The position numbers and the translations under genes were made by a program. Shown piece by piece: positions 48,772-64,000 of a stretch of 64,000 nucleotides of DNA. The notes below the pieces were generated by a model, which did no database searches, was not told the DNA's origin, and saw only the letters and a list, made by a program, of their open reading frames with translations. Source of the DNA: Desulfuromonadales bacterium (GTDB lineage: Bacteria; Desulfobacterota; Desulfuromonadia; Desulfuromonadales; UBA2197); assembly GCA_014859605.1 (NCBI GenBank), contig JACUTW010000002.1:17711-81710 (forward strand), given 5' to 3'. Within the stretch, counting starts at the first letter, position 1, and each line of letters opens with the position of its first letter.

Positions 48772-48911
48772 AACTTATCTCCATCTCTTATTGGCACTGC
48801 CCGCGTGAAAACTTTGCGCGGACAGGCTGGATTGCGGTATAAAAAGAACTTTTGAAACACAAGAGAAGCGCATTATCGGCAGGTAGCAGCAGCAAGTCAA
48901 CAGGCGGATCG

Positions 48912-50780: not shown

Positions 50781-51008
50781 TATTCCACGATTTCAGTCTT
50801 TGGTTGTTGTTGCTGACGATCTTTATGGTAATTTTTTCATGGCCCTTAGTGGCGCATGGAGTCTCTGGAGGTTTGTAATAAATCTTTCCTGGTCAATTAA
50901 TGGAGGAGGACGGGGAATGGGCACCCTTTTTGCTTTTATCGGAATCGCATCAATAAAATATCATCGATTAGGAAATATAAGATTTAAAGCCACTTAGGAG
51001 GCGCCGAT

Positions 51009-54000
51009 ATGAAACGGCTCGGACAAAAAATTTGTGTAGCAGTAGCGTTATCGCTGGCGTTTGTAGCCATATGGCACGATTCGGCGCAGGCCGCAATGCC
51101 GGTTATCAGCTCCCTTGGGCAAATCAAGAATAGTTCGGTTGTTACTCCGACCCGCATCGATGTTGATGCGGCCGGAACGATCTATCTTTGTGACGGTACT
51201 TTGAACGGGGTGGCGCGCTTTGATAAATATGGCAAAGCGCTTCAGGTTCTCAGGGGTGGATACAAGGTCAGGTCGAATGGTGTCGCTGTTACACCGGACG
51301 GAAGCCGTGTTTTTGTTTCTGTTTCCGAGCCGAACAGCGCTGTTGCCACTGCAGTTGCAGTCATTAACGGGTCTACTGGCGAGTTAATCGGCTATCTCGG
51401 TGGTGGTTTTGGCGAGTTTAAAGGGATTAGAGAGATTGACCTGGATGCGGCCGGAAATATCTATGTCGGTAATTACGATAAGGGCAAGACTGTCGCTACG
51501 GTCGCAGCCAATTTTGACACGACCGCTCAGATTGATGTTTATGATGGTGTCACCTACGCAAAGACACACTCCTTTGGTGCTCCCGCTTCGAATCTTGTCA
51601 ACGGCTATTATTTGCCTCTGGCCGGAGAGTTCGGTGAAATTGGCGGTTTGACGGTCGATGTTGTTAATCAGGAAGTCATCATCGCTGAGGGTTGGAATAA
51701 CAACGGGATTACCCGCGCGCAGGTTTTTTCTCTTGATGGAACATTGAAACGTCTCTTGACCGAGGCGGAAGTCTCCGGAACCCAGATTAACTGTAAGCCG
51801 GTGGGATTGACGGTCGATCCCACCGGTCGAGTTTACATGCTCAGTATTTTAACCAGTACCATTCATGCCTTTACCATTAATCCGGTGGTTCAGTATCTGG
51901 GGAAATTCACCAGTGGGACTCCTGACCCGGCTTATGATCCTATCACCGGGAAGGTTTATCCCTGGACGGTCGGGATGATTCCCTCCCCGGCTTTTGATGT
52001 GGTCTATGATTCTTTGACCAATCGTATCTTTGTCGTGACAGACGGTAACGGTATCCAGATCTTCTCGGTAGATGGTTCGACTAATCCGGTAAAGACCAAT
52101 AATGCTCCTGAAGCACCGGCTCTGATCAGCCCTGTTCAGGACGTTGTCGTCGCCACACTAACCCCGACTCTGCAGTGGTCGGCGGCCGTAGATGCAGATA
52201 ATGATGTTCTTTCCTACAATGTTCAGATCATGGCGTTAGATGGCACGATCGTCAGCAGTAACTCTAATATTGCAGCGACCAGTCATCCGGTTGCCGCCGG
52301 TAAATTGGTTGAAAATAGCTGGTACACCTGGCAGGTTCAGGCCGCTGATGCCGAGTTGACTTCGCCCTACAGTGCTGTCGGGAGTTTTTGGGTCAATGCG
52401 GTTGAGGAAGCGCCGACCGCAGCGCTCCTCCTTTCACCCGACAACGCTACCAGGGCCGACAAGGATACAATTTTCAGTTGGCAGGCGGCAACGGATGCCG
52501 ACCCCTTGAGCTCAATCAGTTACCGTTTGGAAATTGCCCGAAATGCGGATTTCACCGCACCAATCATCAGGATTGAACAGAGCGGGCTTAGCAGTGCCCC
52601 TCTGTCGACTTTGCCCGGTTATGACGACCTGCAATCCGGGACCACCTACGACTGGCGAGTTGTTGCAGTTGACAATAGTGCTAGCCGCTTGATCTCAACC
52701 AGTGCTGTCCGCTCCTTCTTTAGTAACAGCGCCCCCGAAATTCCGGTGATGCTCAGTCCGCTTCAGGGTGACGAAGTTGCAACCTTGACGCCGGATTTGC
52801 AGTGGGCGGCCCCTGTCGATGCCGATGGCGACACCCTGCGTTACAATGTCAGGATCGTTGATGCTGCCGGCGTGGTCGTGAGTACCAACAACTCTGTTGC
52901 GACGACAAACTTTATGGTTACGGGCGGAGTTCTCCTTGAAAACAATCAATATGGCTGGCAGGTCCAGGCCGATGATGGCAAGCTCACCTCTGACTTTAGC
53001 GAAATTAAATACTTCTGGGTCAATGCCGTTGAGGAGGCGCCGACCGCGCCAGCCCTTGACGCTCCGGCAGCTGTAATCAATGCTGACAAGGACACGACTT
53101 TTCATTGGCAGGCAGCAAGCGATCCTGATCCCCTTGCCTTCATCAGTTACCGTCTGGAAATTGCCCGGGATAGCGATTTCGCGACGCCAGTGATTGTTGT
53201 TGAGCAAGCGGAACTCTTCAGTGCCGTCCTCTCAGAAATGGCCGGTTATGACGACTTACAGGCGAATACAACGTACCAATGGCGTGTTCTTGCTATTGAT
53301 AATACCGGCTTGAGTACAGCGAGCGAAGTTCGCGCATTGACTTATGTCAGTACGATTCTGACGATTGACGCCACCTTCCCCGGCGCCAAAGTCTATCTCG
53401 GCGGCAATAGCGCTTATAGTGGTCGCTATGTTGGCGAAGTGCCGGTGGCGCTACGCGACATCGATCCCGGAACGATCGAAGTTGTTGTCGAACTTGCCGG
53501 TTTTGAACCGTGGATCAAAAGTGTTGTTGTGAACCAGTGGCAGGGTGTTGTTGTGACTGCCGACCTCGTCGTCGCCATTCTCCCCGGCGAGTTCAAGAAG
53601 GCCTCCCTGTTCGCCGGTGGTGTAAAGATTCAGGGCGGGCCTGAGGCTGCCCCGGTGCTTGTCGATTTCGATAGTGACGGAATCGATGATCTTCTCGTTG
53701 CCGATGGCAGCGGAAAACTCCTTCTCTACAAAGGGCTGGCCGGAGATGTCTGGTCGCTGGCGGCCGCTGTTCAGCTCCCGGGGGTGACTCTCCCTGTCGG
53801 TGCTGTTCCTTTTGTTGCTGATTGGAATAATGACAATCGGAAAGACCTCCTGGTCGGAGCCGCGGATGGTTCGGTCTCTCTTGCTCTCAATGTCGGGACA
53901 CAGGAATCGCCGGTCTTTGCCGCACTCATCTCGTTGCAGGCTGACAATGCTCCCTTGAGTGTCGGCAGCAATGCCGCCCCGCTCCTTTTTGATCTTGACG

Positions 54001-54710
54001 CTGACGGTGCTAAAGATCTTCTGGTCGGGAGTGGCGATGGTACACTCTACAGCTTCCGCAATATCGGTAGTGATGCGACCCCGGTCTTTGCGGCCCGCGA
54101 AGTGCTGATTGCCGCCGCTGCCGGCGCCTCGAATGCTTCAGCGCTTGTGTCGGATTGGGATGCGGATGGCAGTAAAGAGATCCTCCTCGCGGCAAATCAG
54201 GAAATTGCTTTGTATGAGCGTCAAGATGACGCTTATGTTAAAGGGGATCCTCTCCTCGTTCATCAGTCTCTCTATAATACTCGCTTGCGTTCATACGAAA
54301 TGCAGAGCAGCAGCTTCGGCGAAAAAATCCGTATGATTGCAGCTAATCCGGATGGCAAGTTTGGCAAAGACTTGCTGATAGGCAATGCCGCCGGAGAAAT
54401 TTTGTTGGCAAATTCGACGATGAATAAATCGCGGGCGATCTCTCCTCATTTTGATCTGGCATTAATGGCAACGGTCGCTGAAATCGAAGCACTGATTCAG
54501 GAGAATAGCTTGAACACGCCACTGCTCACCTTGACCTTGAGTCAGTTAAAGACGAATATTCAGTCACAGGCTGTCAATAAGTTGAAGAGCTACGATAAAG
54601 CCAAACAAAATGTGCTCTCTATGCAGTCCGCACTGCAAGAAAACACGGAAATTTCCGCAGTCATCAGTAAACTGCAGACCCAACTGAACAGCAAGATTCC
54701 TTTGAAATAA
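51009..54710 (+). CDS. secreted 1233-aa multidomain protein: NHL-like beta-propeller + 2x(approx. 209 aa) FN3/Ig-like tandem + PEGA + five FG-GAP/VCBS repeats + helical tail
   Basis: TAGGAGG RBS. Signal peptide ...WHDSAQA. NHL-like blades (IDVDAAGTIYLCD, IDLDAAGNIYVGN, LTVDPTGRVYMLS). PEGA-like ILTIDATFPGAKVYLGG...VVVELAGFEPW. FG-GAP repeats (VDFDSDGIDDLLVADGSGKLLLY, FDLDADGAKDLLVGSGDGTLYSF, etc.). Confidence 0.8.
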   Translation: MKRLGQKICVAVALSLAFVAIWHDSAQAAMPVISSLGQIKNSSVVTPTRIDVDAAGTIYLCDGTLNGVARFDKYGKALQVLRGGYKVRSNGVAVTPDGSRVFVSVSEPNSAVATAVAVINGSTGELIGYLGGGFGEFKGIREIDLDAAGNIYVGNYDKGKTVATVAANFDTTAQIDVYDGVTYAKTHSFGAPASNLVNGYYLPLAGEFGEIGGLTVDVVNQEVIIAEGWNNNGITRAQVFSLDGTLKRLLTEAEVSGTQINCKPVGLTVDPTGRVYMLSILTSTIHAFTINPVVQYLGKFTSGTPDPAYDPITGKVYPWTVGMIPSPAFDVVYDSLTNRIFVVTDGNGIQIFSVDGSTNPVKTNNAPEAPALISPVQDVVVATLTPTLQWSAAVDADNDVLSYNVQIMALDGTIVSSNSNIAATSHPVAAGKLVENSWYTWQVQAADAELTSPYSAVGSFWVNAVEEAPTAALLLSPDNATRADKDTIFSWQAATDADPLSSISYRLEIARNADFTAPIIRIEQSGLSSAPLSTLPGYDDLQSGTTYDWRVVAVDNSASRLISTSAVRSFFSNSAPEIPVMLSPLQGDEVATLTPDLQWAAPVDADGDTLRYNVRIVDAAGVVVSTNNSVATTNFMVTGGVLLENNQYGWQVQADDGKLTSDFSEIKYFWVNAVEEAPTAPALDAPAAVINADKDTTFHWQAASDPDPLAFISYRLEIARDSDFATPVIVVEQAELFSAVLSEMAGYDDLQANTTYQWRVLAIDNTGLSTASEVRALTYVSTILTIDATFPGAKVYLGGNSAYSGRYVGEVPVALRDIDPGTIEVVVELAGFEPWIKSVVVNQWQGVVVTADLVVAILPGEFKKASLFAGGVKIQGGPEAAPVLVDFDSDGIDDLLVADGSGKLLLYKGLAGDVWSLAAAVQLPGVTLPVGAVPFVADWNNDNRKDLLVGAADGSVSLALNVGTQESPVFAALISLQADNAPLSVGSNAAPLLFDLDADGAKDLLVGSGDGTLYSFRNIGSDATPVFAAREVLIAAAAGASNASALVSDWDADGSKEILLAANQEIALYERQDDAYVKGDPLLVHQSLYNTRLRSYEMQSSSFGEKIRMIAANPDGKFGKDLLIGNAAGEILLANSTMNKSRAISPHFDLALMATVAEIEALIQENSLNTPLLTLTLSQLKTNIQSQAVNKLKSYDKAKQNVLSMQSALQENTEISAVISKLQTQLNSKIPLK
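52098..53352 (+). repeat. in-frame tandem duplication (period about 627 nt) within the 1233-aa protein gene
   Basis: NNAPEAPALISPVQDVVVATLTPTLQWSAAVDADNDVLSYNVQI... is repeated as SNSAPEIPVMLSPLQGDEVATLTPDLQWAAPVDADGDTLRYNVRI... Both units end with a second module (FWVNAVEEAPTA...ISYRLEIAR..DF). Confidence 0.85.
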
Positions 54711-54745
54711 TACAGGGACTATCGATGCAAAACTGGAGAAAAAAG

Positions 54746-55522
54746 ATGCTTAGAAAATCCGTACTGGTTGTTGCTCTGCTTCTGGTCGCAACAAATCTAT
54801 GGGCGGCGAAAACCATGGATGTCTCAGGGACACGACATAATCTGTCGTCAACCTCGGTCAATATCCCCGGCGGCAACTATTATATGGCGACGAATGAAGA
54901 TGAAGTCTGCATCTTTTGCCATACGCCGCATGGTGGCACCATGAACACCCCCTTGTGGAACCGTGCCGTCCCGACCGGAACCGGTTTTACTCACTACACC
55001 AGTGCCACCCTTTCCGGCTATATGACGGGAGCAGGGATGTCGACCCGACCCGTCAATGCTGAGTCGCTCCTTTGTATGTCGTGTCACGATGGCTCTACGG
55101 CGATGAACAGTATCATCAATAACAGTAATCGCACTGCCGCTGCCCCGGATAATACGAGTAATATCCAACCCATGTTCTTTGCCATCGGCGGTGCGATCGG
55201 TGATGCTCCAGATCCAAGTGGGTGGGGCTTTTTAGGGGACACCAAAAACCTTTCCGACGATCATCCGATCTCCTTCAGTTATTCTTCATCTTATAACCAC
55301 ACGGATAACACCGGTGAGTTTCGTGCGCCGGCCGATGCCAAGACCTCGGGGATTCGCTTTTTTGGTGCGGATATTGCCACCGGTAATTTTGTCGAATGTT
55401 CGTCGTGCCATGATCCGCATGTGAATTACGAAGCCGCAAATGGTGGCGATACTGCTTATACTCCCTTTCTAGTAACACCGAACACCGGCAGTGCTCTTTG
55501 TCTCGCTTGTCACATTAAATAG
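54746..55522 (+). CDS. tetrahaem c-type cytochrome (two paired-CXXCH-like halves)
   Basis: GGAG lies 7 nt before ATG 54746. Signal MLRKSVLVVALLLVATNLWA. Haem motifs CIFCHTPH, CMSCHDG, CSSCHDPH, CLACH (last five residues before IK-stop). Confidence 0.85.
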   Translation: MLRKSVLVVALLLVATNLWAAKTMDVSGTRHNLSSTSVNIPGGNYYMATNEDEVCIFCHTPHGGTMNTPLWNRAVPTGTGFTHYTSATLSGYMTGAGMSTRPVNAESLLCMSCHDGSTAMNSIINNSNRTAAAPDNTSNIQPMFFAIGGAIGDAPDPSGWGFLGDTKNLSDDHPISFSYSSSYNHTDNTGEFRAPADAKTSGIRFFGADIATGNFVECSSCHDPHVNYEAANGGDTAYTPFLVTPNTGSALCLACHIK

Positions 55523-55533
55523 AAAGCTTGCAA

Positions 55534-55572
55534 GTGTTTAAAAAGCCCCAAAAGTCGGGGCTTTTTAAACAC
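55534..55572. terminator. strong bidirectional-type terminator hairpin
   Basis: Perfect 16-bp stem GTGTTTAAAAAGCCCC / GGGGCTTTTTAAACAC with a 7-nt loop (55550-55556). Confidence 0.75.
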
Positions 55573-55642
55573 ACATATCATTAGAAAAATTGAATTGAAA
55601 TATTTTCCTAAAAAGTTTTTGCTCTGACAGGAGTACGCAATT

Positions 55643-58600
55643 ATGCGCTTTCATGAAAATTTACTTGGTATAGTCCTGGCCATAAGTTTGTGTTTACCCC
55701 TGTCTGCCTTTGCAGCCAAAGTACATGATCAGGGATGTAATAACTGTCATCGGAGTGGCGCTAATCCCCGCACCTTAGCGAATCTGTGTACTCCCTGTCA
55801 TCTCTCCTTTGGATTAACAAAAGCGAGTGCCGCCTTGGGGAGTCATCCCTCTCCTCCAGAACCAATCTCCGGCGCAGAGACGGTCCATTTCTGGGGAGGA
55901 TCAACGACAACACAGCTAGAGGCGGGAGCAACCAATCCGCCGACGGCTTTTTATACCAGTCGCTATTCCATATCAAAAAACCGCGTGACCTGTACAATAT
56001 GCCACGATCCGCATGCTGATAAGGTCGTCAAGCCCACACTGCTTCGTGCCACAGCGGACGGAGACCTGATTTGCCAGCAATGTCACAGCAGCAGATTCGT
56101 TTCGAATGTCCCGGATACCAATGCCACCCTGACCCATCCCCTTGTCAGTGATTATGAAGCCTTTGCAGCCGCTAATCCGACTAAATACAAAACGCTGAGC
56201 AATTCAGCCAGCGGCGCTGTTCGTCTGGTTGCGGGTGATGTATCCTGTACCTCCTGTCATTCTCCGCACTTTGCAGACTCCTCCTCTGCGACAGAAGACG
56301 GTTTGTTAAATATTGCTGGACTGACTTCCGGAGACGGCTATCTCCTCCGTTCTGACGGTCCGCTCCGTACCGGCGCTAACCGCGACGGTGCTACCGGCAC
56401 GGGTCAGCTTCGCTCCAACCTCTGTCAGGCCTGTCATACTTACAAGATGCACGGAAAAGGTGGCAACCAGCAGATGATCGGTTGTCTCGACTGTCACGGT
56501 GGACATTCCTACAATAACGGAGCGATCAGCGCCTACGTTCTTGCCGGTAAGTCGCCGGATGCCGTACCGGTACGCGCCCTTCGTGCTCCGGCCGGGACAG
56601 CTCAGGTCACTTATGCGGCCTTTCCTGACGGCGGCAGTGTTAGAACCAAGTGGTCTGACAATACCAAGGGAACGGCTAACGGGTTCTGCGAAAAGTGTCA
56701 TGGTGATGTTCAGAATGATGGCCCTGGCGGACTTGGCAATATTGAACTTGAGCATTTGGAGGGCGGTTTAGCCGAATGTACCACTTGCCACAAACATGGT
56801 GAAACCACCTTCAGTTTTGCCAATGACGCAAACGCCGCCACCTGCGGCCAGTGTCATGGTTTCCCCCCTTATAAAAATATCAGCGGCTTCCGTAGCGAAA
56901 TCGGTGATGCGAATGACGGCGGCTGGGCGGATAACAATGTTGATTTGCCCCGCTATGGTTATACCGATAGCAGTCATTTCCTGGATGAATCAAAAGCCGG
57001 GCATAAAACCCATGCCGGCGCCAAACTGGCGGTGAATCCGGGTGAATGGTACTTTGTCGGCACCTCCGGCATCGACAACTGCAAACCTTGTCACGGTAAT
57101 CAGTCTGGCTCCCTCGCCGGCGGCCATCGTGTTCCGCTGTCAACCGATGCCAATACTTTCCGTGATGTTCATTTTGCTTCCACAGCAACTGTTGGTGGTT
57201 TGGTTCCCTCCTATAATACTGTTGCTCACAAGTGTGACAACACCTACTGTCACTCCAATGGTGGAAAACGCACTGGAGATGGACCGGTCCGCAGTTATGC
57301 TGCCCACACCACTCCGGCTTGGGTCGGCACCGGTGCTAACTACACCGCTGGCGGTTATGGTTCAATCTTCCTGCAACCGGTTGCAACCCGTTGCGCCGAC
57401 TGCCACGGGTACAGCGCAGCGACGATGACAGCACAGGGGAATTCGCCGGTACATAACGCCCATCTCGGCGCCGGTGCCACAGGGATCACTTACGAATGCG
57501 ACGTTTGTCATGTCGCAACGGCCGATAGCACAAGAGCATCAAAGCTGAAACTGGATGCGACCGATGGTCAAAAAGGTGGTAAACACGTCAACGGACAAAT
57601 CGAAGTCGGTTACAAAACCAGTGGTAACGCTTTGTTCGCGTCACTGGCAACTAATGCTGTCGGACCGAATTATGATCCTGTCACCGGTACCTGTTCTGTC
57701 TATTGTCACGATCCGGCTGATATCGGATTGACAGCAGATTGGGATGATACCACCGACATGCAGTGCGATACCTGTCACGGTGGTATCGCGACGGATACCT
57801 CTGCCAATGGCGGAATCGGGATCATCACCTCCGGATCTCATACCAGACACATCACCACCGCTAACGGTGGCCCCGGGCTTTCCTGTGAAGTCTGTCATGG
57901 CGCCAATACCACTGCCGGCACCCATAGCGGCCATCTCGACGGCATGAATAACATGGTGCCGCCGGTGGATGGTGTCAATTTCGCGGATGTCTGTGATGAA
58001 TGTCACGGCTATGACGCACAAGCCGGCGAAGTCAAACCAATCTGGGGAAATCCGGCGACAACCGACTGCGCCACCTGCCATTCCGGAACGCATAAGTCCT
58101 CGGGATGGGTCGGGGCACCGAATGCTCCACTCTTTGCGCTCGATCGCACGACTGGACATGGTCGTCCCGCCGCCAGCGGCAACTATCCGGTCACCGGCAA
58201 TGCGCCGGGTAACTCGGCCTGTCTCGATTGCCATGTCGCCACCGCCAGCGGTCACTTCAGCGGCGGGCTGGGTGATGCGCTGATGCTGCGCACCGACCTC
58301 GGCTTCCCGGCAACCTACAGCGGCAATGAAAATGCTTTCTGTGCCAACTGCCACGGCACCGCGCCGGCGCATCCGACCAAAACAGCCAGTGCCGCAACCC
58401 GCAATATCGGCACCCATGCGGCAAAGCGTTGCATCGGCTGTCATGACCTGCACGGCACAGCGAACATTCATATGGTCACGGAACTAAGGGCCACCCAGAA
58501 TGTCAAGGATAACTCCGCCACCGGTAAATATAGCGGCAACGTCTCCTTCCTGCAGATAACCGGTCTTAATTCCTACGACGAGGATGACGGGGAGGTTGGC

Positions 58601-61600
58601 GGCGCTGGTGAAGTCAACGCTGATGATATCTGCGCCACTTGTCATACCGTGGCTGGCGGCGTCCTGCACAACAACAGCAATAATTCGGCCGTTGATCACT
58701 TCCAGGGGAAAGATTGTATCACCTGTCACGGCAATCATCAGATCAGCGGCAATGCTTTCAAGGTCAGGCAGTGCGACGATTGTCACGGTGGTATCAGTAC
58801 TGATACTTCTGCAGACGGCGGAGTCGGGGTCATCACCACCGGTTCCCATACTCGTCACATTACCACCGCCAACGGCGGTCCGGGCCTGTCCTGCGACATC
58901 TGTCACGGCGCAAATGCAACAATCGGCACCCACCCCGGCCACATCGACGGCACAAATAACATGGTACCGACCAACTATCCGGCCAGCTTTGCCGATATCT
59001 GCGATGAGTGCCATGGCTATGACAACGAACCCGGCGAGGTCAAACCGATCTGGGGCTCCCCGGCAACCACCGATTGTGCCACCTGTCACGCCGGATCTCT
59101 GATCAGTGATGGCTGGCCCGGTGCAGCCAATCCCCCGACCTTTACCTTTGCCCGCACCAGCGGCCACGGACGTCTCCCGGCCAGCGGCACCTACCCGGTC
59201 TCCGGCAATGCCGCCGGTAACTCCAACTGTCTTGACTGCCATGTAGCGACGGGCAGTGGCCACTTTAGCGGCGGACTTGGCGATGCATTGATGCTGCGCA
59301 CCGACGTCGGCTTCCCGGCAACCTACACCGGCAACGAAAATATCTTCTGCGCCGCTTGCCATAGTGCGGCCCCGACCCATCCGACTAAATCGGCAACTGC
59401 CGCGACCCGCGGTATCACCACCCATGCGGGAAAAACCTGCATTGCCTGTCACGACCTGCATGGCACCGGCAATATCCAGATGGTGATTGCCTCGCAGACA
59501 GAGCAAAATACCAAAGACAATTCATCAAACGGTCAATATACCGGCAGTGTTTCGTTCCTGGCGATTACCGGCGCCAACTCCTATGACGAAGACGATGGTG
59601 CAGCCGGCGGTGCCGGAGAAATCAACGGCGACGATATCTGCGCCACCTGCCATCTCCTGGCAGAAGGGGTTACCCACAATAACAGCAATAATTCAACTGG
59701 TAACCATTACCAGGGTGAGGATTGCTTTACCTGTCATTCCGGCCACAAAAATGCGACCAACTCCTTCATCGCAGGTGCCGGTACGGCTTGTAACGATTGT
59801 CATGGCAACCCGCCGAATACTGGTGCGCACGGTACCGGCAGTAACAAACACACCCGGGTTTCGTCGAATGACCGAACCCTCGAAGATCTGACCGATTGTG
59901 CTTACTGTCACACCGGCGCGAACGATTACACCTACGATCTTGGCGCTGACCAAGGCGCCGTTGGTGCCCGCGCCAACCACGGCAGCGGCAATCGCGTCGC
60001 GGTCCTTGCCACGTCCATCGGTTACAGCCAGAGCGGTAACCTTTGGGGCTGCGCCAACGTTTGTCACACCTCGTCGGCAGCCGATAGTTTCTGGTTCGAT
60101 AAGAGTAGCGGCAGTGACCCGGCGACCTGGATCAAAGATACCAACGGCATTTCCTGTAATGCCTGCCACTTCTATGCGCCGACCGTTTCTGCGGCCAGTG
60201 TTCCGAACAATCTTTCGGATGTTCACGACGAGCACTTTGCCGCCGGCAAAGGGTGCGCCGAATGCCACCCGATGACCGGTGACTACAACAGCGGCGTCGG
60301 GCATGCAGGACCGTTGACCCATATCGACAGTTTCGATTTCGGTAGCGGTAAAGATGACAATGACGGCCTGGCCCTCGTCGATATGGCGCAGGCAACTCAG
60401 GATGAAGCCGGCTACGACAAAGGCGGCGGCGTTCGCGATGTCGTCCGTGCCGGGATGACCTATACCGATGCCAATACCTGCTCGGGCGGTATCGGTCTCG
60501 GTTGCCATGCCACCGGAGTTCCGGATTGGGATATTCCTATCCCCAACAACAATGCCGGTTGCCTGGAATGTCACACCGACACCAACAACGGCGCGGTTGG
60601 CAACCCTGTCTCCGGTATTCATGACAACAGTCCCAACGGCCCGACAGTCACCGGCGTCGCTCACGACGGCAGCTTCGATAACGGCAGCGGCGGAATTGCC
60701 GATTGCGTGACCTGCCACTCCCTTACCCCGACAGTTGTCGCTGCCAATCACATGAATGGCACCATCAACACCGGCACGGCGATCACCGTTCTCCCCATCG
60801 CCGGCTATAACCAGGCAACCAGCAGCTGTACAACTGCCTGCCACAGCGCTGGTACGGCCTGGGCTTACAAGTGGTCGTTGAGCGCATACGCTACCAACGG
60901 GACCGAGTGTGCCAACTGTCACGGTGACTATGCTACCGGTTGGGTCAGTGGCGTGGCGCCACATACCGAGAACCCGACCCGCGGCAGCAAGCACAACGCG
61001 ACCGGCAATTTGACCTATCCCTGCGCCGAATGTCATGGCATTGGATCTCCCGGCTACAAATGGACGACCATGTGGGATCCGACCGGCGCCACCAGCCATC
61101 ATGGCGACGACAAGATCACCATGAGCAATTCGGCAGTACATACTTTTGCCATCGACACCGCCCCGAACCCGGATCGTGCCGGCTGTACAACTACGAGTTG
61201 CCACGGCAACGACAGCTTGCACAACTTCCGCGTTACGACGACATCCCTGCCGACGGCAACAGTTACCGGCATCGAGGCGGCGATTCTCTGTTCAAGCTGT
61301 CACGGCGGTTATGTCGGCACCAATGCCAACGGCTACTGGCCGGACGGTGCCAACGCTGTCGATAATGGTAGCGAAGACAACAGTGGTGCCCACTTAAAGC
61401 ATATGGTCTATCTCGCGAAGTCGATCTACGATGAGGATCTTGCCGGGCTGCTGACCGATAATGGCAAGGGAGACGCTGATGCAAAACAGAAGGAACTCTG
61501 TTCCTACTGTCATAATGCGCCTGGTTCCGACGGTGACCATGGCCCGGTTGCCAGCCTGCCGGCCGAAGTCAATAGCATGTACAAAGGTTGGCTGCCGAAG

Positions 61601-64000
61601 ACCGCTGACAACGGCGTCTGGAGCGCCGCCAGCAAGACCTGTGCGACGGTCGATTGTCACTTTAACAAAACGACTCCGACAACCAACGACTGGTACGCCC
61701 CGCTTAACAACGGCAACTGCGCTATGTGCCATGTCGATGTGACGGTTGAAACCGCCCACACCAAACATACCTCGGCGGCGACCGCGACCACCTTCGGGCG
61801 CGCCTCCCTCTGCTCCGATTGCCATGAAGCCGCGACCAACTGGGGGACCAACACCGGTCCGGCCACAGGTCACATTGACGGTGTTTATACGGTCGCCGGC
61901 AGCAAAATGACCTCCTATGTCGGCTTTACTTATCCGGCGGTGAAGGGCACCTGCGGCACCAACGCTTGTCACAACAACGGCATTGGCGGCGCACCGATTA
62001 TCGATCCGGTCTGGGGAACGACGCAGGCAAACTGTACAATCTGTCACGCAGGCACCCCGGCGACCGGCACGCACGTCAAGCACATGAGCAACACGGCATG
62101 GGTGTCGGGTGGCTGCAGCGACTGTCACACCGACTCGACAGCTTCTGTAATATCGGCATCTACTCACATGGATGGCGTCCGTAACGCCGGCGGTAGCAAG
62201 AATGTTGTCAATAACGCCAACGGTTCCTGCACCAATACCTGCCATCTCTCTGCCGAGGCCGGGAACTGGACCGGCAACAGCAGCAATATTACTTGTACGG
62301 ACTGCCACAGCGGCAGCGGCGCGTCGGCTTATATCGGCGGCAACAAGACCAGCGTTGGCGGTCCCAACTACATGCCGCAGTACAACATGCACCTGACGGT
62401 TCCGACGGTCTCTGGCAAGGTCCATACGGCTGCCGGTCTTGCCACCGCCTGTACCACCTGCCACAGCAATCTCGCTGACAAGACCACCCACATGAACGGG
62501 GTCTGGACAGCAGATGATGCCGACAACACCAATGACCAGCACCGTGGTCTCTTTGCCGGCTTCACTGACGGGACGGTTCCGACCTGTAACACCGCCTGTC
62601 ACAGTGCCGGTGCCGCCTGGGCCTACAAGTGGTCCGCTACTGCCGGGGCGACGAACGGCACTCAATGCGATAACTGCCACGGTCGCTTCTCAACCGGCTT
62701 TAACGCCGGAGTTATGCACCAGCTCATGGACAGCCGTGGCAATAACGCGCATACCAACAGTGGCAACCTTGCTTATCCCTGTACCGACTGCCACGCGATC
62801 GGTGCCAGCAGCGGTAATTATCCCTTCGCCAATATCAGCAACGACTGGAAAGCGACCGACGCCGGTGCAACCACTCCACACGGCGATGGTTTCATCACCC
62901 TGAACAGCAACGGAACCACCTGGGCCCGCCTTGGCGGTCGCTCCGGTTGCTCTGCCTGCCACGCTGGCGCGACCGGTACGGCGAATAATTATGATTATCC
63001 GACAACTGCCTGGACGTCTCAAACGGTTCTCGGCGATCCGCCTGACGTGAGCGGCAGTTGCACCGCCTGCCATGGCGGCGCGGAATACTGGCCAGACGGC
63101 ACAGTCGCTCCGGATCGTACCGGAAAACATTCCGCCCATGTCCACGCCATTGCGGTTCAACTCGGCGGCGACACGGCGGGGAATCGTAACGCAACCTGTT
63201 CCTATTGCCACCCCAATCCAGGTGAATCCGGGCACAATGACGGCGGCTCGGCCGAAGTCGGACTGTTCAAGAATATCCTCACCGGCGCCTTTACCGATCC
63301 TGACGGGGTCCTCAATACTGCCGACTCAACCTGCAGTCTGGTCGATTGCCACTTTAATAATGCCGTCACTCCGCATTGGTATACCGACATCTATCCGCCG
63401 GCACAGGTGACCTTGACCGCCACCACCGGTGTTGCTGCCAAGCCGCGTTCGATCAATGTCAGTTGGACCTCGCCGGGTGATGACGCTAACGTCGCCAACA
63501 CCACGGTGCACCGTTACGATATGCGTTACGGTACCAGCAGCGCGATTGCCAGCGATTTTGGTCGTACGGACAATTATGCTGGCGGGTTACCTTTGGCTTA
63601 TGCCCAGGGGACGCTCCAGGATGTCACTATTGATAACCTGACGCCGGGAACGACCTACTACTTCAGCCTGCGCAGTCAGGATGTTGCCGGTAACTGGTCA
63701 ACGCCATCCGCTGTCGTCAGCGCCGTGGCGAGCGGTGATACGGTTGTACCGTACTTCGGTGGCGTCAACCGTGCGGCCAAGGCCGATGAATCACAAACCA
63801 TCAATGTCGAATGGTCGCCGGCTGAAGACCACACCATGCCGATCACCTACAAGATCTGGGTCAAGCCGGTTTCGTCCGGTGCCCTTGATATGGATATTGA
63901 TGCACCGCTGTTGACCGGCGTCAAAGGCTACAAGTACCAATTGACCTCTGCCAACGGCGTCGTCAATGACATGATTTATCAGGTTGGTGTGCGTGCTTGT
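55643..64000 (+). CDS. giant multihaem c-type cytochrome, 3' end beyond the window (at least 2,786 codons); NOT in the supplied ORF table
   Basis: Frame +2 is open from ATG 55643 to 64000, with an in-frame TGA at 55625-27 and AGGAG at 55629-33. Frame checked at 56762, 57764, 60002 and 63002. Signal MRFHENLLGIVLAISLCLPLSAFA. Hand count is 52 CXXCH + 11 CX3/4/7CH. FN3-like modules from about 63395. No other +2-frame ORF appears in the table for this span. Confidence 0.9.
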   Translation, partial: MRFHENLLGIVLAISLCLPLSAFAAKVHDQGCNNCHRSGANPRTLANLCTPCHLSFGLTKASAALGSHPSPPEPISGAETVHFWGGSTTTQLEAGATNPPTAFYTSRYSISKNRVTCTICHDPHADKVVKPTLLRATADGDLICQQCHSSRFVSNVPDTNATLTHPLVSDYEAFAAANPTKYKTLSNSASGAVRLVAGDVSCTSCHSPHFADSSSATEDGLLNIAGLTSGDGYLLRSDGPLRTGANRDGATGTGQLRSNLCQACHTYKMHGKGGNQQMIGCLDCHGGHSYNNGAISAYVLAGKSPDAVPVRALRAPAGTAQVTYAAFPDGGSVRTKWSDNTKGTANGFCEKCHGDVQNDGPGGLGNIELEHLEGGLAECTTCHKHGETTFSFANDANAATCGQCHGFPPYKNISGFRSEIGDANDGGWADNNVDLPRYGYTDSSHFLDESKAGHKTHAGAKLAVNPGEWYFVGTSGIDNCKPCHGNQSGSLAGGHRVPLSTDANTFRDVHFASTATVGGLVPSYNTVAHKCDNTYCHSNGGKRTGDGPVRSYAAHTTPAWVGTGANYTAGGYGSIFLQPVATRCADCHGYSAATMTAQGNSPVHNAHLGAGATGITYECDVCHVATADSTRASKLKLDATDGQKGGKHVNGQIEVGYKTSGNALFASLATNAVGPNYDPVTGTCSVYCHDPADIGLTADWDDTTDMQCDTCHGGIATDTSANGGIGIITSGSHTRHITTANGGPGLSCEVCHGANTTAGTHSGHLDGMNNMVPPVDGVNFADVCDECHGYDAQAGEVKPIWGNPATTDCATCHSGTHKSSGWVGAPNAPLFALDRTTGHGRPAASGNYPVTGNAPGNSACLDCHVATASGHFSGGLGDALMLRTDLGFPATYSGNENAFCANCHGTAPAHPTKTASAATRNIGTHAAKRCIGCHDLHGTANIHMVTELRATQNVKDNSATGKYSGNVSFLQITGLNSYDEDDGEVGGAGEVNADDICATCHTVAGGVLHNNSNNSAVDHFQGKDCITCHGNHQISGNAFKVRQCDDCHGGISTDTSADGGVGVITTGSHTRHITTANGGPGLSCDICHGANATIGTHPGHIDGTNNMVPTNYPASFADICDECHGYDNEPGEVKPIWGSPATTDCATCHAGSLISDGWPGAANPPTFTFARTSGHGRLPASGTYPVSGNAAGNSNCLDCHVATGSGHFSGGLGDALMLRTDVGFPATYTGNENIFCAACHSAAPTHPTKSATAATRGITTHAGKTCIACHDLHGTGNIQMVIASQTEQNTKDNSSNGQYTGSVSFLAITGANSYDEDDGAAGGAGEINGDDICATCHLLAEGVTHNNSNNSTGNHYQGEDCFTCHSGHKNATNSFIAGAGTACNDCHGNPPNTGAHGTGSNKHTRVSSNDRTLEDLTDCAYCHTGANDYTYDLGADQGAVGARANHGSGNRVAVLATSIGYSQSGNLWGCANVCHTSSAADSFWFDKSSGSDPATWIKDTNGISCNACHFYAPTVSAASVPNNLSDVHDEHFAAGKGCAECHPMTGDYNSGVGHAGPLTHIDSFDFGSGKDDNDGLALVDMAQATQDEAGYDKGGGVRDVVRAGMTYTDANTCSGGIGLGCHATGVPDWDIPIPNNNAGCLECHTDTNNGAVGNPVSGIHDNSPNGPTVTGVAHDGSFDNGSGGIADCVTCHSLTPTVVAANHMNGTINTGTAITVLPIAGYNQATSSCTTACHSAGTAWAYKWSLSAYATNGTECANCHGDYATGWVSGVAPHTENPTRGSKHNATGNLTYPCAECHGIGSPGYKWTTMWDPTGATSHHGDDKITMSNSAVHTFAIDTAPNPDRAGCTTTSCHGNDSLHNFRVTTTSLPTATVTGIEAAILCSSCHGGYVGTNANGYWPDGANAVDNGSEDNSGAHLKHMVYLAKSIYDEDLAGLLTDNGKGDADAKQKELCSYCHNAPGSDGDHGPVASLPAEVNSMYKGWLPKTADNGVWSAASKTCATVDCHFNKTTPTTNDWYAPLNNGNCAMCHVDVTVETAHTKHTSAATATTFGRASLCSDCHEAATNWGTNTGPATGHIDGVYTVAGSKMTSYVGFTYPAVKGTCGTNACHNNGIGGAPIIDPVWGTTQANCTICHAGTPATGTHVKHMSNTAWVSGGCSDCHTDSTASVISASTHMDGVRNAGGSKNVVNNANGSCTNTCHLSAEAGNWTGNSSNITCTDCHSGSGASAYIGGNKTSVGGPNYMPQYNMHLTVPTVSGKVHTAAGLATACTTCHSNLADKTTHMNGVWTADDADNTNDQHRGLFAGFTDGTVPTCNTACHSAGAAWAYKWSATAGATNGTQCDNCHGRFSTGFNAGVMHQLMDSRGNNAHTNSGNLAYPCTDCHAIGASSGNYPFANISNDWKATDAGATTPHGDGFITLNSNGTTWARLGGRSGCSACHAGATGTANNYDYPTTAWTSQTVLGDPPDVSGSCTACHGGAEYWPDGTVAPDRTGKHSAHVHAIAVQLGGDTAGNRNATCSYCHPNPGESGHNDGGSAEVGLFKNILTGAFTDPDGVLNTADSTCSLVDCHFNNAVTPHWYTDIYPPAQVTLTATTGVAAKPRSINVSWTSPGDDANVANTTVHRYDMRYGTSSAIASDFGRTDNYAGGLPLAYAQGTLQDVTIDNLTPGTTYYFSLRSQDVAGNWSTPSAVVSAVASGDTVVPYFGGVNRAAKADESQTINVEWSPAEDHTMPITYKIWVKPVSSGALDMDIDAPLLTGVKGYKYQLTSANGVVNDMIYQVGVRAC
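57764..59788 (+). repeat. in-frame tandem duplication of a 336/339-codon, nine-CXXCH unit inside the giant cytochrome
   Basis: Unit 1 is 57764-58771 (QCDTCHGGIATDTSANGG...). Unit 2 is 58772-59788 (QCDDCHGGISTDTSADGG...). About three-quarters of residues are identical by eye. The same similarity shows in the antisense shadow ORFs 57641..58471 and 58484..59506. Confidence 0.85.

What the first reader, a model, noticed from the sequence alone, without database searches (positions are those of the whole stretch)
50781..64000. Three-gene candidate extracellular electron-transfer module in a compositionally distinct block
After uvrC the sequence becomes visibly more AT-rich. Spot counts of single 60-nt lines give about 50% GC at 51.0 kb versus about 70% at 4.5 kb; this is not a full computation. 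A/T-ending codons become frequent. The block encodes, all on the + strand and each with a signal peptide: (1) a 1233-aa propeller/FN3-like/PEGA/FG-GAP protein, (2) a tetrahaem cytochrome, and (3) the giant cytochrome with an FN3-like tail. No porin-like or periplasmic MtrA-type partner is visible, so this does not look like a classical porin-cytochrome conduit. The pairing of a large adhesin-like scaffold with a small and a giant cytochrome suggests a surface-anchored or matrix-embedded redox assembly of unknown architecture.
Basis: inference. Interest (0 to 1): 0.85.

Follow-up and report, generated by a model that had tools for sequence, protein, structure and literature searches.

The report
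OmcP/OmcO-type extracellular cytochrome gene module
The three genes form a real, widely conserved unit, an enlarged version of a cytochrome cluster that Geobacter metallireducens needs to respire iron oxide; its small cytochrome is related to the subunit of the OmcE "nanowire", so this is a larger variant of a known kind of system.

Summary
The three + strand genes exist as described. P1 (1233 aa) has an NHL propeller, four Ig/FN3 domains, a PEGA domain, an FG-GAP propeller and a helical tail. P2 has four haem motifs. P3 is a giant cytochrome that runs off the window; its full length is about 4059 aa with 72 haem motifs.

In a rough tree, P2 falls outside the clade of the proven OmcE filaments.

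The order NHL protein, then four-haem cytochrome, then large CxxxxCH/CxxCH cytochrome recurs in 12 of 13 comparable loci across Desulfuromonadia. It matches the published G. metallireducens Gmet_0556-0557-0558 (OmcP/OmcO) cluster, which is needed for Fe(III) oxide reduction. I could not compare those sequences directly.

No porin or beta-barrel gene is adjacent.

The GC drop is real but modest (0.515 against 0.588) and covers only 50.8-57 kb. It recurs in relatives, so it is not evidence of recent transfer.

New here:
- a conserved sigma-54 promoter;
- a strong hairpin after P2;
- P3 collinear with three separate cytochrome genes elsewhere;
- a conserved convergent TPR lipoprotein just past the window;
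- a ninth conserved histidine in P2.

Verdict: a new variant of a known kind, of moderate interest.

The parts
50919..50934 (+). Sigma-54-type -24/-12 promoter element GGGCAC-N5-TTGCT, about 75-90 nt upstream of the P1 ATG.
   Evidence: Read directly from the sequence. It is one of only two GGCAC-N5-TTGC matches in the 64-kb window. The same kind of element lies upstream of the P1-like gene in 9 of 11 related loci. In other lineages a haem sensor kinase and a sigma-54 activator sit directly upstream.
51009..54710 (+). P1, a 1233-aa secreted scaffold or adhesin-like protein with no haem motif. Domains: signal peptide (aa 1-28); NHL-type 6-bladed propeller (aa ~29-365; nt 51093-52103); four Ig/FN3-like domains as a duplicated two-domain unit (aa 366-777; nt 52104-53339); PEGA (aa 782-852); FG-GAP propeller (aa ~860-1136); four-helix tail (aa ~1146-1228; nt 54444-54692).
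   Evidence: Pfam. AlphaFold2 model with mean pLDDT 82.8. Foldseek matches to NHL propellers (6d69 TMt 0.77, Pizza6 TMt 0.81) and to propeller+FN3 ectodomains. Internal duplication of aa 363-570 and 572-777 at 55-59% identity. 100% identical to NCBI 'VCBS repeat-containing protein' from a Desulfuromonadales MAG.
54725..55522 (+). P2, an OmcE/OmcP-family tetrahaem c-type cytochrome of 265 aa (258 aa from the more likely start at 54746), with a Sec signal peptide.
   Evidence: Four CxxCH motifs. Full-length match to the OmcE filament subunit 7TFS (E=5.6e-28) and to D. soudanensis OmcE 9YUQ (E=3.7e-20). H38, H66, H69, H121, H180, H229, H232 and H263 are invariant in 31 relatives. An extra His, H90, is present in 117 of 119 close relatives.
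55534..55572 (+). Perfect 16-bp hairpin flanked by A and T runs, 11 nt after the P2 stop codon. Probable intrinsic terminator or attenuator between P2 and P3.
   Evidence: MFE -25.6 kcal/mol, z = -7.9 against shuffles. Equivalent hairpins occur at the same place in L001 and L003, but not in more distant loci, where the genes abut. The consensus terminator scan did not list it.
55643..64000 (+). P3, a giant CxxxxCH/CxxCH multihaem cytochrome. The window holds the first 2785 codons of about 4059; the gene should end near nt 67,822 beyond the window. It includes a 1008-nt tandem duplication (57744-58751 and 58752-59759) and the first FN3 domain at nt 63404-63712.
   Evidence: ORF and motifs. Pfam and NCBIfam hits to Cytochrome_C7, MtrC/F II-IV, fn3 and TIGR01904. 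Full protein P0160. Internal repeats. The N-terminal ~1050 aa align over the near-full length of 27-haem OmcO-like proteins; the whole protein is collinear with three separate cytochrome genes in L010. No PDB relative.

Best explanation
This is a sigma-54-controlled extracellular electron-transfer module of the OmcP/OmcO type. It is an enlarged relative of the G. metallireducens Gmet_0556 (NHL protein), Gmet_0557 (4 haems) and Gmet_0558 (27 haems) cluster.

Proposed working; every step is inferred unless marked otherwise.
1. An enhancer-dependent sigma-54 promoter drives P1 and P2 as one transcript. The gene gap is 14-35 nt.
2. A strong hairpin after P2 limits read-through into P3, so P1 and P2 are made in excess over the giant protein.
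3. All three proteins are exported by Sec, and haem is attached in the periplasm.
4. P2 has the OmcE sequence pattern: four haem motifs and all eight histidine ligands (shown), including the N-terminal His38. It therefore either polymerises head-to-tail as OmcE does, or docks by histidine donation onto another haem protein.
5. The NHL propeller of P1 handles or holds P2. An NHL propeller gene directly precedes the OmcE-like gene in this clade and in many canonical OmcE-type loci (shown).
6. The Ig-like stalk of P1 has 2, 4 or 6 modules in different relatives. With the PEGA domain, FG-GAP propeller and helical tail, it fixes the assembly to the cell surface or matrix.
7. P3 is a single-polypeptide haem wire. 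It has 62 haem motifs at a steady 5-7 per 250 aa, then a haem-free FN3 spacer, then a 10-haem end domain. It carries electrons outward to minerals or partner cells.
8. A convergent TPR lipoprotein next to P3 in relatives probably helps assembly or export.
For: - P2 is homologous to OmcE over its full length, with eight conserved His.
- The gene order is conserved in the window, L001/L005, L003/L004, L087, L088/L090, L089/L091, L008, L009, L010, L011, L014 and L027. These span two different chromosomal contexts, hypEDC-uvrC and metH-HK-RR.
- P1-like proteins with the same domain order lie directly upstream of the OmcE-like gene in Geoalkalibacter, Geothermobacter and Desulfuromonas loci.
- The P1 propeller aligns end to end with the NHL protein of the Pelotalea cluster (E=7e-14) and more weakly with the NHL lipoprotein of a canonical cluster (E=7e-7).
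- The N-terminal ~1050 aa of P3 match 27-haem OmcO-like proteins (E about 1e-50 to 1e-56), and P3 is collinear with three separate genes in L010.
- A sigma-54 element is found in 9 of 11 loci. My own estimate of the chance expectation is about 0.005 per locus; this was not a tool result.
[quoted passage not shown] OmcE and OmcP are treated as one homologous group (PMC11492766).
Against: - In a rough NJ tree, P2 and the other cluster-type-A cytochromes form a clade separate from both structurally proven OmcE filaments. Polymerisation is therefore unproven for this subfamily.
- The canonical omcE partners are absent: no beta-barrel, no PQQ-type propeller and no octahaems. No export route is visible.
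- I could not compare directly with GSU2912-2914 or Gmet_0556-0558. That link rests on published descriptions (NHL; 4 haems; 27 haems with 67% identity to OmcO) matched to the Pelotalea locus L011.
- OmcP and OmcO are dispensable for Fe(III) oxide reduction in G. sulfurreducens (PMC9070056).
- The physiological role of cytochrome filaments is itself disputed (PMC11077965, title and abstract only, listed).
- One related locus (L007) lacks the giant cytochrome.
- There are no expression or localisation data for this organism, which is known only as a MAG.
Confidence: 0.6

Rival explanations
1. P2 is not a homopolymeric filament subunit. It is instead a nine-histidine OmcE-like cap or adaptor: all four of its own haems are ligated internally, and it donates one extra histidine to an open haem on another protein. 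That partner could be an end of the giant cytochrome P3 or the end of an OmcE filament. P1 would hold this junction.
For: A ninth histidine (H90, motif F-T-H-Y-T/S) is present in 117 of 119 close relatives of P2. Both solved OmcE filaments and the canonical-cluster proteins have Leu, Thr or Met there. The D. soudanensis OmcE preprint argues that a filament 'stopper' should be an OmcE-fold protein with four haems and nine histidines, and names a candidate encoded outside the omcE cluster. P2 always travels with a giant cytochrome rather than with the beta-barrel of filament clusters.
Against: Where H90 lies relative to any haem is unknown; the haem-free AlphaFold2 model was unusable. The Geobacterales members of the same cluster type have Met or Val at this position. 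The hairpin after P2 suggests P2 is made in excess over P3, which suits a polymer better than a 1:1 cap.
Confidence: 0.17
2. The module acts in the periplasm. P3 would be an electron store or a bridge spanning the periplasm, P2 a small shuttle, and P1 a periplasmic scaffold. None of them would be on the cell surface.
For: All three proteins have only Sec signal peptides. No sorting signal, porin or secretion component is encoded nearby. Very large multihaem proteins have been proposed as electron stores (PMC11492766).
Against: P1 has an adhesin or ectodomain-like build: propeller, Ig/FN3 string, PEGA, FG-GAP. P3 contains FN3 domains. By the published estimate of about 350 A for a 27-haem relative, a 62-haem chain would far exceed the stated periplasmic width of about 170 A. 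OmcE is extracellular.
Confidence: 0.1
3. The block is a recently acquired genomic island, and its low GC marks foreign origin.
For: P1 and P2 have GC 0.51-0.52 and GC3 0.53-0.55, against 0.60 and 0.70 for the other genes in the window. The module sits at uvrC in this clade but at metH-HK-RR in other lineages, so it has moved at some point.
Against: The same uvrC-adjacent position and the same low GC of P1 and P2 are seen in relatives with only 55-88% P2 identity, so any move is old. Most of P3 has the window's average GC. There are no tRNA genes in the window and no Rfam element in 48-64 kb. No integrase was seen nearby, though not every ORF was scanned. The only direct repeats found lie inside P3. 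Low GC3 of the tetrahaem gene also holds in Geobacterales loci.
Confidence: 0.05

Closest known systems
G. metallireducens Gmet_0556 (NHL repeat protein), Gmet_0557 (4-haem, OmcP homologue) and Gmet_0558 (27-haem, OmcO homologue); G. sulfurreducens OmcP GSU2913 and OmcO GSU2912
   Same: Same gene order and gene types: an NHL-propeller protein, then an OmcE/P-group tetrahaem, then a CxxxxCH/CxxCH many-haem cytochrome. The Geobacteraceae locus L011 (875-aa NHL/Ig protein, 4-haem, 27-haem) fits the published description. Its proteins are homologous to P1 (propeller), P2 and the N-terminal ~1050 aa of P3. Sigma-54 control is shared.
   Different: P1 carries FN3/Ig, PEGA, an FG-GAP propeller and a helical tail, instead of Glucodextran_B/Big Ig domains. 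P3 is about four times longer (4059 aa, 72 haem motifs) and looks like a fusion of three neighbouring cytochrome genes plus a recent 336-aa duplication. The sensor kinase and sigma-54 activator are not adjacent. A hairpin separates P2 from P3. P2 has a ninth conserved His. I did not compare directly with the Gmet or GSU sequences.
OmcE cytochrome nanowire and its gene cluster (G. sulfurreducens GSU0618, PDB 7TFS; D. soudanensis, PDB 9YUQ)
   Same: P2 aligns with OmcE over its full length and shares the four CxxCH motifs and four distal histidines. An NHL propeller is encoded directly upstream in both cases.
   Different: P2 falls in a sister clade. The published canonical cluster has two small propeller lipoproteins, a large beta-barrel and two multihaem cytochromes, and lies between purHDE/resB-ccsB and ffh. 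Here there is no barrel and no PQQ-type propeller, there is a giant cytochrome instead, and the chromosomal context differs.
osc (omcS companion) assembly cluster for OmcS nanowires (Shen et al. 2025, as cited in PMC13194489)
   Same: A beta-propeller protein (OscD there) accompanies a filament-type cytochrome.
   Different: There is no PPIase chaperone (OscH) and no OscEFG channel here. OmcS is unrelated in sequence to OmcE/P.
Porin-cytochrome conduits (MtrCAB, Pcc/Ext complexes)
   Same: Multihaem cytochromes for electron transfer beyond the outer membrane.
   Different: No porin gene and no periplasmic MtrA/OmaB-type partner lies in or next to the module.
NHL-propeller-plus-cytochrome clusters of Desulfovibrio ferrophilus (DFE_0448-0451, DFE_0461-0465) and the Uet cluster of Ca. 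Tenderia
   Same: NHL propeller proteins are encoded beside outer-surface multihaem cytochromes and have been proposed to stabilise the complex.
   Different: The cytochromes are different. The Uet cluster includes a beta-barrel and a PPIase. I made no sequence comparison.

Membership tests
OmcE-family tetrahaem (OmcE/OmcP homologous group) | Four CxxCH haem-binding motifs in a protein of about 220-300 aa with a signal peptide | tested here: met
   CxxCH at residues 62, 117, 225 and 259; 265 aa.
OmcE-family tetrahaem (OmcE/OmcP homologous group) | Full-length sequence homology to structurally solved OmcE | tested here: met
   7TFS E=5.6e-28 (query 15-265 against chain 10-232); 9YUQ E=3.7e-20.
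OmcE-family tetrahaem (OmcE/OmcP homologous group) | Four distal histidines, giving bis-His ligation with one His donated between subunits | tested here: met
   H38, H69, H180 and H232, plus the four CxxCH histidines, are invariant in the alignments and present in 7TFS and 9YUQ. Which histidine is the inter-subunit donor was not determined.
OmcE nanowire proper (filament-forming clade and its cluster) | Groups with the filament-proven OmcE proteins | tested here: not met
   In the NJ tree, P2 and the other type-A proteins form a separate clade. 7TFS and 9YUQ sit among canonical-cluster proteins. The tree is rough and has no support values.
OmcE nanowire proper (filament-forming clade and its cluster) | Cluster encodes a large beta-barrel, two small propeller lipoproteins and two multihaem cytochromes | tested here: not met
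   Only the NHL propeller is present, as a domain of P1. There is no barrel or PQQ-type propeller in the window or in the flanks of relatives.
OmcE nanowire proper (filament-forming clade and its cluster) | Polymerises into an extracellular haem filament | not testable with these tools
   The haem-free AlphaFold2 model of P2 had pLDDT 47.7. This needs cryo-EM or a haem-aware multimer model.
OmcP/OmcO-type cluster (Gmet_0556-0558; GSU2912-2913) | Gene order: NHL protein, then 4-haem cytochrome, then large CxxxxCH/CxxCH cytochrome | tested here: met
   Seen in the window and in 11 other loci. TIGR01904 domain found in P3.
OmcP/OmcO-type cluster (Gmet_0556-0558; GSU2912-2913) | Large cytochrome homologous to the 27-haem OmcO type | tested here: met
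   P3 residues 6-1049 align with 27-motif proteins of L011 and L027 over nearly their whole length, and with that of L010 over about 80% of its length, at E=1e-50 to 1e-56. The reference sequences GSU2912 and Gmet_0558 themselves were not available.
OmcP/OmcO-type cluster (Gmet_0556-0558; GSU2912-2913) | Direct orthology of P2 to GSU2913 or Gmet_0557 | not tested
   Those sequences could not be obtained with the tools. The link rests on published descriptions.
OmcP/OmcO-type cluster (Gmet_0556-0558; GSU2912-2913) | Required for Fe(III) oxide reduction or interspecies electron transfer | not testable with these tools
   Needs genetics in a cultured carrier.
Porin-cytochrome conduit (Mtr/Pcc/Ext) | Adjacent outer-membrane porin gene and periplasmic multihaem partner | tested here: not met
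   None in the window ORF map or beside the module in relatives.
Genomic island | Atypical composition, plus mobility genes, a tRNA or repeats at the borders, and patchy presence among close relatives | tested here: not met
   Composition is mildly atypical for P1 and P2 only. There are no tRNA genes in the window and no Rfam element in 48-64 kb. No integrase was seen nearby, though not every ORF was scanned. Position and composition are conserved in relatives.

The most novel reading that the evidence does not exclude
The P2 subfamily (four haems, nine conserved histidines) may not be a nanowire subunit. It may be a histidine-donating cap or adaptor that plugs into a terminal haem of the single-polypeptide 72-haem wire P3, or into the end of an OmcE filament. 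P1 would be the surface scaffold and the TPR lipoprotein the assembly factor. That would make a heteromeric 'giant-cytochrome wire plus cap' architecture that works without the beta-barrel of the known nanowire clusters. It could also supply the filament-terminating protein that the OmcE field has postulated but not yet identified.
Probability: 0.15. Interest if true: 0.8.

Novelty: new variant of a known kind. Interest (0 to 1): 0.5.

Why it matters
Three cytochrome nanowires of Geobacter (OmcS, OmcE, OmcZ) have solved structures, but how they are exported, started, ended and connected to the cell is still open. The OmcP/OmcO cluster has a clear genetic phenotype in G. metallireducens and no known mechanism.

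This locus ties those two threads together. The small OmcP-type cytochrome is an OmcE homologue with every haem ligand conserved. It is always paired with an NHL-propeller protein and a very large haem-rich cytochrome, it is under sigma-54 control, and it has no dedicated barrel.

The fused 72-haem version found here is collinear with three separate cytochrome genes in other genomes, which argues that those separate cytochromes act as one chain. The variable Ig-stalk length of P1 and the subfamily-specific ninth histidine give concrete, testable handles.

Cultured carriers exist, including Geothermobacter hydrogeniphilus and Geoalkalibacter species, so the model can be tested by genetics and cryo-EM.

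Tried and rejected
- An exact-sequence look-up of P2 and of the full P3 (P0160) found no contig on record. I could not read the window's own contig past 64 kb; only a short Logan contig with P1 was found.
- The single genome-contig scan returned nothing closer than 47% identity to P2.
- The AlphaFold2 model of P2 from a 31-sequence alignment, without haems, had mean pLDDT 47.7. It was not used for fold search.
- The afdb50 fold library was not available. I had hoped it would link P1 to named Geobacter proteins.
- The PDB fold search with P1 gave only generic propeller and FN3 matches.
- The PDB sequence search with P3 found nothing at E<=0.01.
- The OmcE structure paper (PMC9357133) is not held, and no supplements are held for the cytochrome survey. 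The GSU2913, Gmet_0557 and DSOUD_2415 sequences therefore could not be compared.
- I tested whether the C-terminal third of P3 is a fusion with the ~1250-aa non-haem proteins that follow the cytochromes in L009 and L011. There is no similarity, so I rejected the idea.
- The consensus scan found no sigma-70 promoter for P1 or P3 and did not list the post-P2 hairpin as a terminator, because its T-run is one base short.
- There are no tRNA genes in the window and no Rfam families in 48-64 kb.
- The recent-island reading was rejected.

Full report
WHAT IS IN THE SEQUENCE

Three + strand ORFs follow uvrC (48852-50780; its Pfam domains are confirmed).

- P1 is 51009-54710, 1233 aa, with no haem motif.
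- P2 is 54725-55522, 265 aa, with four CxxCH motifs.
- P3 starts at ATG 55643 and is open to the window end.

P2 more likely starts at ATG 54746, which gives 258 aa. That codon follows a GGAGA ribosome-binding site, and most homologues begin MLKKSVL.

P1 is 100% identical to an NCBI protein named 'VCBS repeat-containing protein' from a Desulfuromonadales MAG, on a contig of 85,704 bp. P3 is the N-terminal 2785 residues of an NCBI 'CxxxxCH/CxxCH domain-containing protein'. The NCBI gene call starts 114 codons too late and loses the signal peptide and two haem motifs. The corrected protein is 4059 aa with 62 CxxCH and 10 Cx3-5CH motifs. All three proteins have Sec-type signal peptides by inspection.

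COMPOSITION

GC is 0.588 upstream, 0.515 for 50781-57000 and 0.582 for 57001-64000. P1 and P2 have GC3 of 0.547 and 0.530, against 0.70 +/- 0.06 for the 32 other genes of at least 200 aa. P3 has GC3 of 0.621.

The same pattern recurs in relatives that share the hypE-hypD-hypC / uvrC context with only 55-88% P2 identity, and in Geobacterales versions of the cluster. There are no tRNA genes in the window and no Rfam element in 48-64 kb. No integrase was seen nearby, though not every ORF was scanned. The low GC is a property of these genes, not a sign of recent transfer. The other low-GC patches in the window are accessory genes: PIN, RhuM, and a Schlafen/Fic-like protein.

P2 IS AN OmcE HOMOLOGUE

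A sequence search of the PDB gave two hits, both cytochrome filaments: G. sulfurreducens OmcE (7TFS, E=5.6e-28, full length) and Desulfuromonas soudanensis OmcE (9YUQ, E=3.7e-20).

The four CxxCH histidines and four further histidines (H38, H69, H180, H232) are invariant in 31 relatives and present in both solved proteins. This matches the bis-His ligation of OmcE, in which one histidine is donated to a haem of the neighbouring subunit (review PMC12954529).

The family is large. There are 3560 clusters at 90% identity with E<=1e-5. Among 50%-identity representatives there are 3926 at E<=1e-3 and only 76 at E<=1e-30.

TWO CLUSTER TYPES

I fetched 80 loci from species-representative genomes and six places from metagenomes, then mapped the neighbouring genes.

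Type B is the published canonical OmcE arrangement: two propeller lipoproteins, a large beta-barrel and two multihaem cytochromes, lying between purHDE/resB-ccsB and ffh (bioRxiv 10.1101/2025.10.22.684050). An example is the Sedimenticola locus L031. It has a 368-aa NHL lipoprotein, the OmcE-like gene, a 598-aa protein with no Pfam hit (probably the barrel), a 374-aa PQQ/BamB-type propeller and two octahaems.

Type A has a large NHL-propeller multidomain protein (875-1437 aa), then the tetrahaem, then one to three large CxxxxCH/CxxCH cytochromes (1043-4660 aa). It is found in the window, L001/L005, L003/L004, L087, L088/L090, L089/L091, L008 (Geothermobacter hydrogeniphilus), L009, L010, L011 (Pelotalea chapellei), L014 and L027. 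L007 (Geoalkalibacter sp.) has the first two genes but no giant cytochrome. L051 is cut off by the end of its contig.

In a rough NJ tree, the type-A tetrahaems, P2 included, form one clade. 7TFS and 9YUQ sit among type-B proteins. P2 is therefore a paralogue of OmcE proper.

LINK TO THE LITERATURE

- A survey of Desulfuromonadia cytochromes treats 'OmcE/OmcP' as one homologous group, and 'OmcH/O' as another (PMC11492766).
- In G. metallireducens, Gmet_0557 (4 haems, OmcP homologue) lies next to Gmet_0558 (27 haems, 67% identical to OmcO). Gmet_0556 is an NHL repeat protein.
[quoted passage not shown] The Gmet_0557 deletion mutant cannot establish interspecies electron transfer with G. sulfurreducens.
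- OmcP and OmcO are dispensable in G. sulfurreducens.

The Geobacteraceae locus L011 has an NHL/Ig protein, a 4-haem protein and a 27-motif protein, which fits that description. I could not obtain the Gmet or GSU sequences, so this identification is inferred rather than tested.

P1

Pfam finds fn3, Ig_Rha78A_N, PEGA and FG-GAP_3.

The AlphaFold2 model is good (mean pLDDT 82.8). It is all-beta up to about residue 1136 and ends in four helices. Foldseek finds NHL propellers (6d69 TMt 0.77; Pizza6 TMt 0.81) and propeller-plus-FN3 ectodomains such as ROS1 and Sevenless.

The N-terminal propeller aligns end to end with that of the Pelotalea NHL protein (E=7e-14), and more weakly with the type-B NHL lipoprotein (E=7e-7). 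An NHL propeller encoded just upstream of the OmcE-like gene is thus common to both cluster types.

The Ig-like stalk is a duplicated two-domain unit (aa 363-570 and 572-777, 55-59% identical). Relatives have 2, 4 or 6 such modules.

Only 39 protein clusters resemble P1 at E<=1e-5.

P3

- Haem motifs run at a steady 5-7 per 250 aa up to about residue 2570. A haem-free FN3/Ig block of about 600 aa follows, then 10 more motifs.
- Residues 6-1049 align with the 27-motif OmcO-like proteins of L011 and L027 over nearly their whole length, and with that of L010 over about 80% of its length (E=1e-50 to 1e-56).
- The three consecutive cytochrome genes of L010 map in order onto P3 residues 3-945, 1968-2537 and 3674-3917. 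P3 therefore looks like a fusion and expansion of what are separate genes elsewhere.
- A 1008-nt tandem duplication (57744-58751 and 58752-59759; 68-82% amino-acid identity) adds nine haem motifs. It accounts for the extra length over the 3727-aa homologue in L005.
- No solved structure is related.
- Desulfuromonadia cytochromes reach up to 87 motifs, so 72 is large but not a record.

REGULATION

GGGCAC-N5-TTGCT lies at 50919-50934, about 75-90 nt upstream of P1. It is one of two GGCAC-N5-TTGC matches in the window, where 0.78 are expected by chance. A similar element (TGGYAY-N5-TTGCA) lies upstream of the P1-like gene in 9 of 11 type-A loci. My own estimate of the chance expectation is about 0.005 per 400-nt region.

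In most other lineages, a sensor kinase with one haem motif and a sigma-54 activator sit directly upstream. In the window's clade uvrC is there instead.

After P2 there is a perfect 16-bp hairpin flanked by A and T runs (55534-55572; -25.6 kcal/mol; z=-7.9). The equivalent hairpin is found only in the window's clade. I infer that P1 and P2 are made in excess over P3.

BEYOND THE WINDOW

In the three relatives where the far side of the giant gene can be seen, a ~450-aa lipoprotein with C-terminal TPRs lies convergent to it. These are L005, L091 and L090, which cover both chromosomal contexts. The lipoproteins are 35-52% identical to one another. This is a probable fourth member of the module. 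No beta-barrel follows.

AN UNEXPLAINED DETAIL

P2 and 117 of its 119 closest relatives carry a ninth histidine (H90). Both solved OmcE filaments and the type-B proteins have Leu, Thr or Met at that position. The Geobacterales type-A proteins have Met or Val.

The D. soudanensis preprint argues that a filament 'stopper' should be an OmcE-fold protein with four haems and nine histidines, and names a candidate encoded outside the omcE cluster. Whether that candidate is of the P2 type could not be checked.

VERDICT

This is a conserved extracellular-electron-transfer module of the OmcP/OmcO kind. Its small cytochrome belongs to the OmcE nanowire family. It is present here in an enlarged form: P1 carries PEGA and FG-GAP, P3 is a fused 72-haem protein, the regulators are detached, and there is an attenuator hairpin.

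Whether P2 polymerises, caps or docks is open. No export route is visible. The physiological role of cytochrome filaments is itself debated (PMC11077965, title and abstract only, listed).

Noticed in passing
L005:21271-22620 (-), L091:22240-23589 (-), L090:22339-23697 (-); predicted in the window's contig just past ~67.8 kb: A ~450-aa lipoprotein with C-terminal TPRs lies convergent to the giant cytochrome in all three relatives where that side is visible. The three proteins are 35-52% identical and occur in two different chromosomal contexts. It is probably a fourth member of the module.
   Followed up: partly
window:54725-55522, residue H90 of P2: A ninth histidine (F-T-H-Y-T/S) is conserved in 117 of 119 close relatives. 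Both solved OmcE filaments and the canonical-cluster proteins lack it. It matches the 'nine histidines, four haems' criterion proposed for an OmcE filament stopper.
   Followed up: partly
window:55643-55984: The NCBI gene call for the giant cytochrome starts 114 codons downstream of the likely ATG. It drops the signal peptide and two CxxCH motifs.
   Followed up: yes
window:57744-59759: A 1008-nt tandem duplication inside P3 (71-76% nucleotide identity, 68-82% amino-acid identity) adds a nine-haem unit. Judging by length, the 3727-aa homologue in L005 lacks it.
   Followed up: partly
window:27405-28916 and window:40553-41983 (-): The other low-GC patches in the window encode a PIN-domain protein, a RhuM-family protein and a Schlafen AlbA_2/Fic-C protein. 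These look like accessory or defence-type genes.
   Followed up: partly
window:42687-43088 (-): A small 133-aa ORF has two CxxCH motifs and no Pfam match. It sits between a 228-aa ORF that I did not characterise and the PBP1-type gene.
   Followed up: no
Many loci, for example L029, L033, L036, L043, L063: In many Gamma- and Betaproteobacterial, Nitrospirota and other loci, the best OmcE-like match lies inside ORFs of 520-930 aa with 11-12 haem motifs. This suggests OmcE-like modules fused to larger cytochromes. It could also be an artefact of my ORF calling.
   Followed up: no
L003:10892-20789: The public gene calls over the giant cytochrome of this metagenome bin are broken into small minus-strand genes. 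An ORF scan gives a + strand ORF of 2374 aa, then an overlapping + strand ORF read for 1016 aa to the locus end, which the public call gives as 2006 aa. A frameshift or assembly error is likely.
   Followed up: partly
L006:1-21025 (ENA bin.7 contig, about 65 kb from its P1-P2 pair): The same organism has two more giant cytochromes (4446 and 3674 aa) in tandem, separated by a 402-aa protein. The closest homologue of the window's P3 is one of these, not the cytochrome next to its own P1-P2 pair.
   Followed up: no
window:15434-15447: This is the only other GGCAC-N5-TTGC match in the window. It lies on the + strand, in a region where the neighbouring ORFs are on the minus strand.
   Followed up: no
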